Origin: an uncultured Flavobacteriaceae bacterium
GTDB lineage: Bacteria; Bacteroidota; Bacteroidia; Flavobacteriales; Flavobacteriaceae
Length of the DNA: 64,000 nt
Reading direction: 5' to 3'
Assembly (NCBI GenBank): GCA_964504555.1
Contig: CAZDFA010000001.1
Span: 32,440-96,439 of the forward strand
The notes under the pieces were generated by a model. That model was given only the letters and a program-made list of their open reading frames with translations. It ran no database searches and was not told where the DNA came from. This document shows positions 1,855 through 6,701 of the stretch, piece by piece. Every line of letters begins with the position of its first letter. The first letter of the stretch is position 1. A program made the translations under genes and the position numbers.

Positions 1855-1899
1855 TGTGACTATTCTTACTACTCCAATCCAAATACTACTATACATTTG
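1855..1899 (+). promoter_or_regulatory. CRP/FNR-like box TGTGACTATTCTTACT (1855-1870) plus -7 element TACATTTG (1892-1899)
   Basis: Box resembles TGTGA-N6-TCACA; the 21-nt spacer to -7 is identical in two other promoters of the locus. Confidence 0.7.
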
Positions 1900-1921
1900 C
1901 AATAGTCAAGTATTGTTTGCA

Positions 1922-2722
1922 ATGGAGATAACACAGCTTTTAGGCTACTTTTGCGCCTTACTTATAGGTGTTACCCTCGGTGTTATAAGCGGTGGAGGTT
2001 CAATACTTGCGGTACCTATTCTTGCATATTTATTTCATGTGGATGAAAAGCTGGCTACTGCTTATTCTCTATTTATCGTAGGCACAAGTGCTTTGGCAGG
2101 AGGAATTCGTCAGCATTTTAAAGGTTATGTAGATTGGCGTACGGCCGTTGTTTTTGGAATTCCTGCCATCATTGGAGTAGCAGTAGTTAGGTATTTTGTT
2201 GTGCCTAGGCTACCTGATATTTTATTTACTGTTGGATCGTTAGAATTTACTCGAAGAATGGGAATGTTTGGTCTATTTGCTGTGTTAATGATTCCAGCGG
2301 CCTTCTCGATGCTAAAGGAGCGCAAAGATAATAGTATAGCAAAAACAGCTGTAAAATATAATTATTTATTGATCCTTCTTGAAGGGCTTTTAATAGGAGC
2401 TGTTACGGGATTAATAGGAGCTGGAGGGGGATTTTTAGTCGTCCCAGCTTTAGTAATTCTAGCAAAAATGAGAATGAAAGTTGCCGTTGGTACTACTTTG
2501 GTTATTATCGCCTTTAAATCACTTATAGGATTTTTTATTGGGGATGCCTTTTATTTAAATATTAACTGGCAGTTTTTGTTTTCTTTTACAATTATATCCT
2601 TAGTTGGTATATTTATTGGGACGTATTTAGGTAATTTTATAAATGGAAAAAGACTTAAAAAAGGCTTTGCCTATTTTATTTTTGTGATGGCAGTTTTTAT
2701 ATTTTATATGGAATTTCTTTAA
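1922..2722 (+). CDS. Sulfite exporter TauE/SafE family membrane protein
   Basis: GGGGSILAVP and GAGGGFLVVP duplicated motifs, multiple TM helices; start moved to ATG 1922 because the GTG at 1856 lies inside the promoter. Confidence 0.9.
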   Translation: MEITQLLGYFCALLIGVTLGVISGGGSILAVPILAYLFHVDEKLATAYSLFIVGTSALAGGIRQHFKGYVDWRTAVVFGIPAIIGVAVVRYFVVPRLPDILFTVGSLEFTRRMGMFGLFAVLMIPAAFSMLKERKDNSIAKTAVKYNYLLILLEGLLIGAVTGLIGAGGGFLVVPALVILAKMRMKVAVGTTLVIIAFKSLIGFFIGDAFYLNINWQFLFSFTIISLVGIFIGTYLGNFINGKRLKKGFAYFIFVMAVFIFYMEFL

Positions 2723-2730
2723 ATTAAATT

Positions 2731-4146
2731 ATGCACATTGAACAAATTTATACAGGATGTTTGGCTCAGGGAGCATATTATATTGAAAGCAATGGAGAAG
2801 TTGCTATTATAGATCCATTGCGTGAAGTGCAACCGTATCTAGTTAGAGCAAAAGAAGACAAGGCTATAATCAAATATATTTTTGAAACCCATTTTCATGC
2901 TGATTTTGTAAGTGGGCATGTGACACTTTCAGAAAAAACAGGAGCACCTATTGTTTATGGTCCAAATGCCGAAACTTCTTTTGATGCGATTAGTGCCAAA
3001 GATGGCCAAGAATTCAAACTAGGAGATGCAACTATTGTTGTGTTGCATACACCAGGGCATACTATGGAGAGTACGACCTATCTGTTAAGGGATGCCAACG
3101 GGAAAGATCACGCTATTTTTAGTGGTGACACCTTGTTTTTGGGAGACGTTGGGAGACCTGATCTTGCACAAAAGGCTGCTACAATGACACAAGAAGAACT
3201 AGCTGGAATTTTATATGACAGTTTGCGTTCAAAAATAATGACACTAGCAGATGATGTTATTGTATATCCTGCCCATGGTGCTGGCTCAGCTTGTGGCAAA
3301 AACCTTAGTAAAGAAACAGTGGGTACTATAGGAGGACAAAAACAGAACAACTATGCGCTACGGCCAGATATGACAAAAGATGAGTTTGTAAATGAAGTAA
3401 CAGATAATTTATTACCACCGCCACGATATTTCCCACTTAACGTGAAACTCAATAAAGAAGGATATGAAGATGTTGCAGATGTTATTAAACGTGCTACACA
3501 TGCCTTATCTTCTGAGGAATTTGAAGTTGCCGCCGATGAAACAGATGCTGTAGTGCTAGATGTAAGACATCAAAGTGAGTTTGTAAAAGGGCATATACCG
3601 CGCTCTATTTTTATTGGTCTTGATGGTGGTTTTGCACCCTGGGTAGGGGCATTGATTGGTGATGTAAAACAAAATATTCTTTTAGTTGCTCCAGAAGGTC
3701 GAGAAGAAGAAGCAATCACCCGACTATCTCGTGTAGGATTTGATCAAACATTAGGTTACTTAAACGGAGGCTTTGAAGCCTGGAAAAAAGACGCCAAAGA
3801 ATTTGACACCATGCGCTCAATCCCTGCGAGGGAGTTTAAAGATGAGCTTAGCGAAGCACCTTCAAAAATAGTTTTTGATGTTAGAAAACCAGGGGAGTAT
3901 AATTCAGAACATATGGAGAATGCTCTTAGCACGCCATTAGATTTTCTCAATGACCACCTTTCTCAATTCCCTGAAGGCGATCCATTTTATATCCATTGTG
4001 CTGGAGGTTATAGGAGTGTTATTGCCGCCTCTATATTAAAAAGTAGAGGGATCCATAATCTTGTAGATATTCAGGGAGGGTTTGTAGCTATGAAGGAATT
4101 GGGCATTAAAACAACAGATAACGTATGTCCAACAACCCGAAGTTAA
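2731..4146 (+). CDS. MBL-fold persulfide dioxygenase-like hydrolase with two rhodanese domains (CstB/Blh-like)
   Basis: THFHADF, HTPGHT, GDTLF, PAHGAGSACG motifs; C-terminal rhodanese HCAGGYRS. Confidence 0.9.
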   Translation: MHIEQIYTGCLAQGAYYIESNGEVAIIDPLREVQPYLVRAKEDKAIIKYIFETHFHADFVSGHVTLSEKTGAPIVYGPNAETSFDAISAKDGQEFKLGDATIVVLHTPGHTMESTTYLLRDANGKDHAIFSGDTLFLGDVGRPDLAQKAATMTQEELAGILYDSLRSKIMTLADDVIVYPAHGAGSACGKNLSKETVGTIGGQKQNNYALRPDMTKDEFVNEVTDNLLPPPRYFPLNVKLNKEGYEDVADVIKRATHALSSEEFEVAADETDAVVLDVRHQSEFVKGHIPRSIFIGLDGGFAPWVGALIGDVKQNILLVAPEGREEEAITRLSRVGFDQTLGYLNGGFEAWKKDAKEFDTMRSIPAREFKDELSEAPSKIVFDVRKPGEYNSEHMENALSTPLDFLNDHLSQFPEGDPFYIHCAGGYRSVIAASILKSRGIHNLVDIQGGFVAMKELGIKTTDNVCPTTRS

Positions 4147-4195
4147 AAACGATTTTCTTAGGGAATAGTTTACAAGAATTTTTATTAGTTCAAGT

Positions 4196-5688: not shown

Positions 5689-5694
5689 AAATGA

Positions 5695-6573
5695 TTAGGA
5701 TCCCTGTCCTTTTTTGAAACCATACCTAGTTTGCCCCAAAAAATCCTTGGGAAAGGAATCATCTCCAGGAAAACCCAATTCAATAGTGCCGCTATCCTCG
5801 GGAATATAGTTATGACCAAAAATATAATCCCAAAGACTCAGGCTTATTCCAAAATTCACTCCAAATCGGCCTTTAGGTAAGTCATAAACATGGTGATACA
5901 AATGCATCACAGGATTGTTGAGTATGTACTTTAACGGCCCCCAAGTTATTTTGATGTTAGAATGATTAAAATGTCCAATAGTAATAGCCGCAAAGTGGAC
6001 AATATATGCTTGTTCAGGCTCAAATCCTCCTAAAATCATAACACCAAATGTTTTGAGCGGTTTATACAAAATATTCTCCACCCAATGATAGCGCAAATGA
6101 GCTGCGAAGCCCATTTCTTTTACGCTGTGATGCACTTTGTGAAATCGCCAAAAGAAAGAGAATTTATGTAGCATAATATGGGTAAGCCACTGGACAAAAT
6201 CTAACACCACAAAAAACACAATAAGCTGCAACCACATAGGCCAACTTGAAGGATCTATAAGCGCGAGACTCTTATCATGAATGCCAATATCGGTAAAGCC
6301 TAATTGGAGTAATTTATAAAATCCGCTAATAGCTATAGAGAAAATAAAAAAATTGAAAAACATATAAAAGCCATCCAACCAAAAGTCTTTTCTAAAAATA
6401 GACTGATCCTTACGCCAAGGGTAGGCAATTTCCAATAGCCATATTGCAAGAGAAATGACAATAAGCCCCCAAAAATAGTTGGAATACCAAGGCACATCAA
6501 AAAGTATTGATTTCCAAGTCCAGTCTAAGGTGCCAGTTATTGCATTTAAAATGCTTTCCAAATAGTTGTTCAT
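5695..6573 (-). CDS. Sterol desaturase / fatty acid hydroxylase family membrane protein
   Basis: His boxes HIMLH, HKVHH, HFNH, HLYHH. Confidence 0.9.
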   Translation of the reverse strand: MNNYLESILNAITGTLDWTWKSILFDVPWYSNYFWGLIVISLAIWLLEIAYPWRKDQSIFRKDFWLDGFYMFFNFFIFSIAISGFYKLLQLGFTDIGIHDKSLALIDPSSWPMWLQLIVFFVVLDFVQWLTHIMLHKFSFFWRFHKVHHSVKEMGFAAHLRYHWVENILYKPLKTFGVMILGGFEPEQAYIVHFAAITIGHFNHSNIKITWGPLKYILNNPVMHLYHHVYDLPKGRFGVNFGISLSLWDYIFGHNYIPEDSGTIELGFPGDDSFPKDFLGQTRYGFKKGQGS

Positions 6574-6580
6574 AGCATTC

Positions 6581-6625
6581 CAAAATTAATAGAATTATTG
6601 AAACCCTGAAGTAACTTTTGTCACT
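6581..6625 (-). promoter_or_regulatory. CRP/FNR-like box (AGTGACAAAAGTTACT on minus strand, 6625-6610) plus -7 TAATTTTG (6588-6581)
   Basis: 21-nt box-to-promoter spacer; -7 element ends 7 nt before the desaturase ATG. Confidence 0.7.
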
Positions 6626-6656
6626 ATAAATATTGCTGTTACCATTTTTTACAGCT

Positions 6657-6701
6657 TGTAACAAGCGTCACAGGATTTTTGGCGTTGATAAATTAATTTT
6701 G
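6657..6701 (+). promoter_or_regulatory. CRP/FNR-like box TGTAACAAGCGTCACA (6657-6672) plus -7 TAATTTTG (6694-6701)
   Basis: One mismatch from the canonical TGTGA-N6-TCACA; 21-nt spacer to -7. Confidence 0.72.

What the first reader, a model, noticed from the sequence alone, without database searches (positions are those of the whole stretch)
1855..6701. Hidden CRP/FNR-type regulon: three promoters with the same box-21 nt-TAnnTTTG geometry
Seen: TGTGACTATTCTTACT (1855-1870), TGTAACAAGCGTCACA (6657-6672) and minus-strand AGTGACAAAAGTTACT (6625-6610) each end exactly 21 nt before a perfect -7 element (1892, 6694, 6588). Consensus WGTRAC-N4-STYACW. I checked the equivalent position at the mfd and bacilliredoxin promoters and it is absent. 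Established: the consensus resembles the CRP box TGTGA-N6-TCACA. Inference: the box overlaps the -33 position and is centred near -41.5 if the TSS is ~5 nt after the -7 G, the class II activator geometry. The regulon would cover TauE/persulfide dioxygenase-rhodanese, the desaturase and the small ORF/DUF2892 unit, which points to a sulfur- or redox-responsive Bacteroidota CRP-family circuit.
Basis: partly seen in the sequence, partly recalled or inferred. Interest (0 to 1): 0.72.

Follow-up and report, generated by a model that had tools for sequence, protein, structure and literature searches.

The report
Crp-type sulfur-detox regulon operator sites
The three boxes are real, conserved docking sites for a cysteine-bearing Crp/Fnr-type regulator, placed where such proteins switch promoters on; they mark a sulfide/persulfide-detoxification regulon found across marine Flavobacteriaceae, for which I found no published description.

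Summary
Observation confirmed. All three boxes sit at the stated coordinates, each 21 nt (22 nt from the 14-bp core GTRAC-N4-GTYAC) before a perfect TAnnTTTG.

- **Paralogous cluster.** Contig C78 of the same genome carries an intact paralogous cluster. It has two Crp/Fnr genes and six more boxes, all with the same 22-nt spacing.
- **Decayed copy.** The window locus is a decayed duplicate. Its own Crp gene and DUF2892 gene are pseudogenes, so its promoters are probably served in trans.
- **Spread.** Box plus spacing plus -7 element occurs in 219 of 301 Flavobacteriaceae genera sampled; a reversed-pattern control gave 2 hits.
- **Link to the regulator.** The motif co-occurs with the Crp1 orthologue (odds ratio 53) and often lies directly after its stop codon.
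- **Target genes.** It precedes persulfide dioxygenase-rhodanese, TauE, SulP, SQR, DUF2892, YeeE, cytochrome bd, peroxiredoxin/thioredoxin, TolC-like and DUF983 genes.
- **Geometry.** With the published flavobacterial -7 position (-12 to -5), the box centre is -41.5, the class II activator geometry. No -33 element is present.
- **Sensor.** Crp1 lacks the cAMP contacts of CRP and has three invariant cysteines in that pocket.

No paper describing this regulon was found. Activation and the sulfur signal are inferred, not shown.

The parts
1855..1870 (+). Box 1 (core 1856-1869, GTGAC-TATT-CTTAC). It is a partly degraded operator upstream of the TauE / persulfide dioxygenase operon.
   Evidence: It is homologous to the intact box GTAACTATTGTTAC before the C78 TauE paralogue. 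It has one core mismatch and scores below 12 bits with the position weight matrix built from relatives.
1892..1899 (+). -7 promoter element TACATTTG, 22 nt after the core of box 1.
1922..2722 (+). TauE/SafE-family anion exporter (266 aa).
   Evidence: Pfam PF01925, E = 2.3e-38. It is 77% identical to the C78 paralogue.
2731..4146 (+). Persulfide-dioxygenase-like MBL-fold domain fused to two rhodanese domains (471 aa).
   Evidence: Pfam Lactamase_B plus two Rhodanese stretches. It is 85% identical to the C78 paralogue.
5352..5688 (+). Remnant of a Crp2-type Crp/Fnr regulator. Only residues ~101-207 remain, with an in-frame stop and a frameshift; the N-terminal sensor half is missing.
   Evidence: Translations. 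tblastn shows 64-69% identity to C78 Crp2 in two frames. HTH_Crp_2 hit with one stop inside.
5695..6573 (-). FA_hydroxylase / sterol-desaturase-family membrane protein (292 aa), the target of box 2.
   Evidence: Pfam PF04116. It is 87% identical to the C78 paralogue. The same gene sits next to Crp2 in Dokdonia and Aquimarina.
6581..6588 (-). -7 element TAATTTTG for the FA_hydroxylase gene. The ATG follows 7 nt later, so the mRNA is nearly leaderless.
6610..6625 (-). Box 2 (core 6611-6624, GTGAC-AAAA-GTTAC on the minus strand).
   Evidence: It scores 17.3 bits with the matrix built from relatives.
6657..6672 (+). Box 3 (core 6658-6671, GTAAC-AAGC-GTCAC).
   Evidence: It scores 14.7 bits with the matrix built from relatives.
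6694..6701 (+). -7 element TAATTTTG, 22 nt after the core of box 3.
6708..6803 (+). Conserved 31-aa transmembrane peptide with a VCxxC motif. It starts 6 nt after the -7 G, so it is probably translated from a leaderless mRNA.
   Evidence: Homologous 28-32-aa ORFs lie at the same place before DUF2892 in 7 other loci, including Dokdonia pacifica. No Pfam or NCBIfam family matches.
6819..6950 (+). DUF2892 / YgaP-like pseudogene, with a frameshift in the poly-A run after the ATG, a premature stop and an internal deletion of about 25 codons.
   Evidence: tblastn to C78 DUF2892 matches residues 2-23 and 49-70 in different frames. Sequence read.

Best explanation
The three boxes are operator sites (core GTRAC-N4-GTYAC, which is GTA/G-N8-T/CAC) for cysteine-bearing Crp/Fnr-family regulators.

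Each box lies 22 nt upstream of a Bacteroidota sigma-A -7 element, so its centre is at about -41.5. It occupies the place where a -33 element would otherwise be. The regulator dimer therefore most likely works as a class II activator that substitutes for the missing -33 contact.

The genes it switches on dispose of sulfide, persulfide and sulfite. In this window they are the TauE / persulfide dioxygenase-rhodanese operon, a FA_hydroxylase-family gene and a CxxC-peptide/DUF2892 unit.

The window locus is a decaying duplicate of a complete cluster on contig C78. Its own regulator gene is dead, so its promoters are probably served in trans by Crp1 and/or Crp2 from C78.

- **Shown:** the motif, its fixed spacing, its conservation, and its genomic link to the Crp genes and to sulfur genes.
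- **Inferred:** binding by Crp1/Crp2, activation rather than repression, and a reactive-sulfur signal sensed through the conserved cysteines.
For: 1. **Enrichment and spacing in this genome.** There are 10 core sites genome-wide; 8 lie in the two sulfur loci. All 9 intergenic boxes of the two loci (8 exact-core plus box 1, which has one core mismatch) have a -7 or -7-like octamer exactly 22 nt after the core. No other gap class is enriched.
2. **Regulator genes in the cluster.** C78 encodes two intact Crp/Fnr proteins among TauE, PDO-rhodanese, three rhodaneses, YeeE, DUF2892 and FA_hydroxylase. No other regulator was found among the 18 C78 ORFs I annotated.
3. **Independent scoring.** A matrix trained only on other genomes ranks the six C78 boxes first in this genome and also recovers window boxes 2 and 3.
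4. **Conserved positions.** Boxes sit at the equivalent promoters in Dokdonia pacifica, Aquimarina and other loci: 22 sites in 184 kb.
5. **Family-wide spread.** 219 of 301 genera carry the composite motif, against 2 control hits. Among the 98 pattern matches in 60 other genera, the gap is 22 nt in 68, 21 nt in 14 and 23 nt in 5.
6. **Downstream genes.** Of 139 sites: 30 PDO/rhodanese, 23 TauE, 21 TolC-like, 12 DUF983, 10 SulP and 8 DUF2892, plus SQR-like, cytochrome bd, peroxiredoxin and thioredoxin genes.
7. **Co-occurrence with Crp1.** The 2x2 counts are 213/33/6/49, odds ratio 53, Fisher p = 1.5e-27. In about 20 genera the box lies within 60 nt of the Crp1 stop codon.
8. **Position relative to the start site.** In Flavobacterium psychrophilum the TAnnTTTG element spans -12 to -5 (PMC9723704). 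This puts the box at -48 to -35. The spacer shows no -33 TTTG, and A is enriched 5 nt after the -7 G.
9. **Sensor and DNA-reading residues.** Crp1 has CRP-type E72 replaced by Met and R82 by Leu, and three invariant cysteines in that cassette. Its recognition helix is SRVVISR, like NtcA's TRVTVTR. NtcA reads GTA-N8-TAC; that is from my own knowledge.
Against: - There is no experimental binding, start-site or expression data for this organism.
- A fixed site overlapping the -35 region could also serve a repressor.
- Box 1 has a degraded half-site and may be weak or dead.
- The co-occurrence statistic is not corrected for phylogeny or genome size.
- Two regulator paralogues exist, and I could not assign boxes to one of them. 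My Glu/Val specificity idea failed.
- C78 and the window are separate contigs of a 236-contig assembly, so it is assumed, not proven, that they belong to one cell. A same-genus genome does carry three PDO paralogues.
Confidence: 0.8

Rival explanations
1. The same boxes and the same Crp-family protein, but acting as a repressor. The dimer would sit over the -35 region and block RNA polymerase until a sulfur signal releases it, as the known persulfide sensors CstR and SqrR/BigR do.
For: The box overlaps the region RNA polymerase needs. According to a 2026 review, most dedicated reactive-sulfur sensors are repressors released by cysteine modification (PMC13467558).
Against: The spacing is fixed to +/- 1 nt across hundreds of promoters and genera. 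That fits a protein-protein contact with polymerase better than simple occlusion. The promoters lack a -33 element, so they look activator-dependent. A centre at -41.5 is the classic class II activator position for CRP, FNR and NtcA (my own knowledge).
Confidence: 0.13
2. The box is not a Crp site. It would instead be the upstream element of promoters read by an alternative (ECF-type) sigma factor or by another, unlinked DNA-binding protein.
For: GTAAC resembles the 'AAC' -35 motifs of ECF sigma promoters (my own knowledge). No binding data exist.
Against: The site is a perfect two-fold palindrome, typical of a dimeric helix-turn-helix protein. The downstream element is the sigma-A TAnnTTTG consensus. 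The motif co-occurs with the Crp1 gene and abuts it. The recognition helix matches that of NtcA, which reads GTA-N8-TAC.
Confidence: 0.04
3. Chance similarity of three AT-rich intergenic sequences.
For: None beyond the low complexity of intergenic DNA.
Against:: large enrichment, exact spacing, conservation, and a near-empty control.
Confidence: 0.01

Closest known systems
NtcA, the cyanobacterial global nitrogen regulator (Crp/Fnr family), and its class II promoters
   Same: It belongs to the same superfamily and reads the same palindrome type, GTA-N8-TAC (GTAAC-N4-GTTAC is a subset). Its site is centred near -41.5 in place of a -35 box. Its recognition helix has Arg-Val...Thr/Ser-Arg (NtcA TRVTVTR, Crp1 SRVVISR).
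   Different: NtcA senses 2-oxoglutarate and controls nitrogen genes at sigma-70 promoters. Crp1 scores 37 bits against a cut-off of 245 for the NtcA model. It carries a cysteine triad in the ligand cassette, works with the Bacteroidota -7 TAnnTTTG promoter, and is tied to sulfur genes.
E. coli CRP and FNR class II activation
   Same: The protein has cNMP-binding-like and HTH_Crp domains. The site is a palindrome related to TGTGA-N6-TCACA and sits at -41.5.
   Different: The cAMP contacts are absent (E72 to Met, R82 to Leu). The N-terminal FNR iron-sulfur cysteine cluster is absent (sequence). NCBIfam scores are far below the cut-offs.
Dedicated reactive-sulfur sensors CstR (CsoR family), SqrR/BigR (ArsR family) and FisR (sigma-54 activator), with their cst/sqr-pdo operons
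   Same: The controlled gene set is of the same kind: persulfide dioxygenase-rhodanese (CstB-like), TauE, SQR, rhodaneses and YeeE/YedE (gene list in PMC13467558). The regulator also has conserved cysteines.
   Different: The regulator family is different, and so is the predicted mechanism: a class II activator rather than a repressor or a sigma-54 enhancer-binding protein. The 2026 review lists only the CsoR, ArsR and Fis families as primary sensors.
PDB 3DV8, an uncharacterised Crp/Fnr-family protein from structural genomics
   Same: It is the closest solved relative (E = 1e-16 to 9e-21). It shares cysteines at the positions of Crp1 C77 and C84, and has an HREVITR helix.
   Different: No function, ligand or DNA site is recorded for it in the PDB molecule name.

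Membership tests
Crp/Fnr superfamily | N-terminal cNMP-binding-like beta-roll plus C-terminal HTH_Crp domain | tested here: met
   C78 Crp1 and Crp2 both hit PF00027 and PF13545 above the cut-offs. The window remnant keeps only the HTH half.
CRP (cAMP receptor protein) | Equivalog-level similarity and the cAMP-contacting Glu72/Arg82 of the phosphate-binding cassette | tested here: not met
   NF008732 scores 52 bits (Crp1) and 42 bits (Crp2) against a cut-off of 266. Aligned to E. coli CRP, Crp1 has Met at position 72 and Leu at position 82. The role of these residues is from my own knowledge.
FNR | N-terminal cysteine cluster for a [4Fe-4S] centre; equivalog or subfamily score | tested here: not met
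   Crp1 has no cysteine before residue 77 and Crp2 none before residue 79. NF008365 scores 19 bits against a cut-off of 228.
NtcA | TIGR03697 equivalog score | tested here: not met
   37 bits (Crp1) and 27 bits (Crp2) against a cut-off of 245.
NtcA | GTA-N8-TAC site and Arg-Val recognition helix | tested here: met
   The box consensus GTAAC-N4-GTTAC fits. The Crp1 helix SRVVISR aligns to NtcA TRVTVTR.
Class II activator-dependent promoter | Site centred near -41.5, replacing the -35/-33 element, at fixed distance from the downstream promoter element | tested here: met
   The gap is 22 nt in 9 of 9 local sites and 22 +/- 1 nt in 87 of 98 sites elsewhere. There is no -33 consensus in the spacer. 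The -7 element spans -12 to -5 in F. psychrophilum. The start site was not mapped in this organism.
Class II activator-dependent promoter | Transcription requires the bound regulator | not testable with these tools
   This needs reporter fusions, a deletion mutant or in-vitro transcription.
Dedicated reactive-sulfur-species sensor | Conserved cysteines that react with sulfane sulfur, and control of PDO/SQR/TauE-type genes | tested here: inconclusive
   Crp1 has three cysteines and Crp2 one, all invariant among 120 homologues each. The regulon content fits. The homologues are 70% or more identical, so invariance is weak evidence. Reactivity cannot be tested here.

The most novel reading that the evidence does not exclude
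Crp1-type proteins would be a fourth, Crp/Fnr-family class of dedicated persulfide/sulfane-sulfur sensors. They would sense through a cysteine triad that replaces the cAMP-binding cassette, and activate transcription from -41.5 at Bacteroidota sigma-A promoters that lack a -33 element. They would control sulfide detoxification (PDO, SQR, TauE, SulP, cytochrome bd, thiol peroxidases, a TolC pump) across marine Flavobacteriaceae.
Probability: 0.4. Interest if true: 0.8.

Novelty: new variant of a known kind. Interest (0 to 1): 0.62.

Why it matters
Flavobacteriaceae are major degraders of algal and particulate organic matter in the sea, where they meet sulfide and organic sulfur. How they sense reactive sulfur is not known. 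The known sensors belong to the CsoR, ArsR and Fis families (PMC13467558).

A Crp/Fnr-type, cysteine-based activator would add a new sensor class. It would also give the first clear example of class II-type activation on the unusual Bacteroidota -33/-7 promoter.

The motif (GTRAC-N4-GTYAC, then 22 nt, then TAnnTTTG) is specific enough to annotate the regulon directly from genome sequence. It points to uncharacterised members (DUF983, DUF2892, a CxxC mini-protein, a FA_hydroxylase, a TolC pump) as parts of sulfur stress physiology.

This window adds a case where operators outlive their local regulator gene and are presumably kept under control by a paralogue elsewhere in the genome.

Tried and rejected
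- **Glu/Val specificity idea.** I proposed that Crp2 (helix SREVISR, Glu as in CRP E181) reads GTGAC half-sites and Crp1 (SRVVISR, Val as in NtcA) reads GTAAC. GTGAC half-sites do cluster at certain targets: DUF983, some PDO genes, DUF2892 and SQR. But 20 fetched neighbourhoods show clusters with only a Crp1-type gene carrying both box types side by side. The idea is not supported, and boxes cannot be assigned to one paralogue.
- **Other sites in this genome.** The fourth window site (22882) and C30:19377 lie inside ORFs and have no -7 partner. I treat them as chance or non-functional.
- **More regulon members here.** A search for further members in this genome found none convincing. One weak one-mismatch site lies on C77, 198 nt from any ORF.
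- **Literature.** Searches for a described Crp-family regulator of PDO, TauE or YeeE in Bacteroidota or Flavobacteria found nothing relevant. GTAAC hits in PMC545781 concern NikR.
- **Structure prediction.** Not run, because the tool returns no coordinates for cysteine-cysteine distances.
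Full report
**1. The observation**

Each ends 21 nt before a perfect TAnnTTTG:
- Box 1 at 1855-1870, with TACATTTG at 1892.
- Box 2 at 6625-6610 on the minus strand, with TAATTTTG starting at 6588.
- Box 3 at 6657-6672, with TAATTTTG at 6694.

The fourth place (22882) lies inside an ORF and has no -7 partner.

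Genes around the boxes:
- A TauE/SafE exporter (1922-2722).
- A persulfide-dioxygenase-like MBL domain fused to two rhodaneses (2731-4146).
- A beta-lactamase-family serine hydrolase (4196-5356).
- A FA_hydroxylase-family protein (5695-6573, minus strand).

Positions 5352-5688 hold the C-terminal half of a Crp/Fnr regulator, broken by a stop and a frameshift.

**2. The rest of the genome decides the matter**

The window is part of contig C1 of a 2.75-Mb, 236-contig assembly. The strict core GTRAC-N4-GTYAC occurs 10 times in the whole genome. Two are window boxes 2 and 3, and six lie on one 12-kb contig, C78.

C78 is a complete sulfur cluster. In gene order it holds:
- Crp1, TauE and PDO-rhodanese.
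- Three single rhodaneses and a TPMT-family methyltransferase.
- Crp2, a divergent FA_hydroxylase, a T9SS-tail protein and a 622-aa protein.
- DUF2892/YgaP-like, a PEMT/ICMT-family methyltransferase and split YeeE/YedE.

The six C78 boxes stand before Crp1, TauE, PDO, FA_hydroxylase, the T9SS-tail/DUF2892 unit and YeeE. Every one has a -7 or -7-like octamer starting exactly 22 nt after the 14-bp core, the same spacing as the three window boxes.

The window locus is a paralogue of this cluster:
- TauE is 77% identical, PDO 85% and FA_hydroxylase 87%.
- The Crp remnant is 64-69% identical to residues 101-207 of Crp2.
- The DUF2892 gene is reduced to residues 2-23 and 49-70, in different frames.

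So the window holds a decaying duplicate. It kept three promoters with their boxes but lost its own regulator. A same-genus genome has three PDO paralogues, so such duplication is normal in this group.

Allowing one core mismatch and requiring a perfect -7 element gives seven hits genome-wide at gaps of 21-23 nt. Six are in these two loci, including box 1. Every other gap class gives 0-1 hits.

**3. Conservation**

I fetched loci encoding Crp2 relatives from Dokdonia pacifica DSM 25597, Aquimarina MAGs, other Flavobacteriaceae, and Sphingobacteriaceae and Cyclobacteriaceae MAGs. They contain 22 core boxes in 184 kb. In the close relatives, 14 of 14 boxes have a -7 element (at least 5 of 6 positions) at the 22-nt gap, and they occupy the same promoters as in C78: before Crp1, before PDO, between FA_hydroxylase and DUF2892, and before YeeE.

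A weight matrix built only from those foreign sites ranks the six C78 boxes first in this genome. It also recovers window boxes 2 and 3. Box 1, with its CTTAC half-site, scores below 12 bits.

Across the family (one genome per genus):
- The composite pattern GTRAC-N4-GTYAC-N22-TAnnTTTG is present in 219 of 301 genomes. The reversed-pattern control gave two hits in total.
- With the gap left free between 10 and 36 nt, 68 of 98 matches in 60 other genera have gap 22, 14 have gap 21 and 5 have gap 23.
- Outside the family, 8 of 21 genomes from other families of the class have a hit. It is near noise in the rest of the phylum, at 4 of 91.

**4. What the boxes control**

I took the first ORF after each of 139 family-wide sites. 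It usually starts 15-30 nt after the -7 element. The tally:

| First downstream gene | Sites |
|---|---|
| PDO/rhodanese | 30 |
| TauE | 23 |
| TolC-like outer-membrane efflux protein | 21 |
| DUF983 | 12 |
| SulP | 10 |
| DUF2892 | 8 |
| SQR-like flavoprotein | 4 |
| Peroxiredoxin | 3 |
| Thioredoxin_9 | 3 |
| Cytochrome bd subunit I | 2 |
| FA_hydroxylase | 2 |
| YeeE | 2 |

Smaller classes account for the remaining sites. This is the gene content of a sulfide and reactive-sulfur response, as listed in PMC13467558.

**5. Who reads the boxes**

- Crp1 orthologues (E <= 1e-40) are present in 246 of the same 301 genomes.
- Motif and Crp1 co-occur strongly: the 2x2 counts are 213/33/6/49, odds ratio 53, Fisher p = 1.5e-27. 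This is not corrected for phylogeny.
- In about 20 genera a box lies within 60 nt of the Crp1 stop codon. One relative has six boxes in 9 kb around a single Crp1 gene.
- Both proteins have the cNMP-binding-like and HTH_Crp domains. Neither reaches any NCBIfam equivalog cut-off: CRP 52 of 266 bits, NtcA 37 of 245, Fnr 19 of 228.
- Public sources name them only 'Crp/Fnr family transcriptional regulator'.
- Aligned to E. coli CRP, Crp1 has Met and Leu at the cAMP-contacting positions E72 and R82. It has three cysteines (C77, C83, C84) inside that cassette. They are invariant in 120 homologues; Crp2 has one invariant cysteine, C79.
- The Crp1 recognition helix SRVVISR matches NtcA's TRVTVTR. NtcA reads GTA-N8-TAC at -41.5 (my own knowledge), and GTAAC-N4-GTTAC is a subset of that site.

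I could not assign boxes to Crp1 versus Crp2. The Glu/Val idea failed when tested on 20 neighbourhoods.

**6. Geometry and mechanism**

Genome-wide start-site mapping in Flavobacterium psychrophilum puts the sigma-A TAnnTTTG element at -12 to -5 (PMC9723704).

In 140 aligned promoters the spacer carries no -33 TTTG consensus. A is enriched 5 nt after the -7 G, which fits a start there.

A strictly phased site at -41.5 on promoters lacking the upstream element is the signature of class II activation. I therefore favour activation (about 0.7 given binding) over repression. The signal is unknown. The cysteine triad and the regulon content make sulfane sulfur or persulfide the leading candidate (about 0.5).

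**7. Window-specific points**

- Box 1 is homologous to the C78 TauE box, GT[G/A]ACTATT[C/G]TTAC, with a similar downstream ...ACTACT[A/T]TACATTTG. It has lost one inner half-site base and may be weakened.
- Boxes 2 and 3 drive the FA_hydroxylase gene, whose ATG lies 7 nt after the -7 element, and a 31-aa ORF.
- That small ORF is real. Homologous 28-32-aa transmembrane peptides with a VCxxC motif start 3-18 nt after the -7 element and precede DUF2892 in seven other loci. They match no Pfam or NCBIfam family.
- The segment that in C78 holds three rhodaneses, the TPMT-family gene and the Crp2 N-terminus is replaced in the window by the beta-lactamase-family gene.

**8. Novelty**

Full-text searches found no description of a Crp/Fnr regulator of PDO, TauE, SQR or YeeE in Bacteroidota. 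A 2026 review lists the CsoR, ArsR and Fis families as the primary reactive-sulfur sensors. The library lacks most subscription journals, so absence is not proof.

Earlier notes of this scan describe the same regulon in several other genomes and reach the same reading. These are AI notes, not independent evidence, but they mean the regulon is not new to the scan.

I rate it a new variant of a known kind: Crp/Fnr class II activation with a new sensor chemistry, a new regulon and a non-canonical promoter type.

Noticed in passing
window 6708-6803; also L010:12197-12283, L009, L012, L046, L082, L083, L129: A conserved 28-32-aa transmembrane mini-protein with a VCxxC motif lies directly upstream of DUF2892. 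Its ATG is 3-18 nt after the -7 element, so the mRNA is probably leaderless. It matches no Pfam or NCBIfam family.
   Followed up: partly
window 4196-5356: A beta-lactamase-family serine hydrolase gene occupies the place where the paralogous C78 cluster has three rhodaneses, a TPMT-family gene and the 5' half of Crp2. It ends at the first base of the Crp2 remnant. This suggests replacement by a deletion/insertion event.
   Followed up: partly
L007 (contig C78) 1547-2065 and 6539-7123: Two methyltransferases sit inside the box-controlled cluster: a membrane PEMT/ICMT-family enzyme and a TPMT-family enzyme. They could methylate sulfide, methanethiol or selenide (MddA-like or TPMT-like chemistry). 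That is my recollection only.
   Followed up: no
L030 and 20 other loci (e.g. G037:C1:380353-381796): In 21 genera the same box and spacing precede a TolC-like outer-membrane efflux gene located far from the sulfur cluster. In 12 genera a hybrid GTGAC..GTTAC box precedes a DUF983 gene. Neither target type is present with a box in this genome.
   Followed up: partly
window 6573-6588: The FA_hydroxylase ATG lies only 7 nt after the -7 element, so its transcript would be nearly leaderless. In the C78 paralogue the ATG is 38 nt downstream.
   Followed up: no
window 22882-22897 and C30:19377: Two perfect GTAAC-N4-GTTAC palindromes lie inside ORFs without any -7 partner. They are probably chance occurrences.
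   Followed up: yes
L167 (G239:C6:249500-265500): A relative has six boxes in 9 kb, each 22 nt from a -7-like element. They stand before DUF983-Crp1, SulP, two tandem PDO genes, peroxiredoxin-rhodanese and SQR. It would be a good model locus for experiments.
   Followed up: partly
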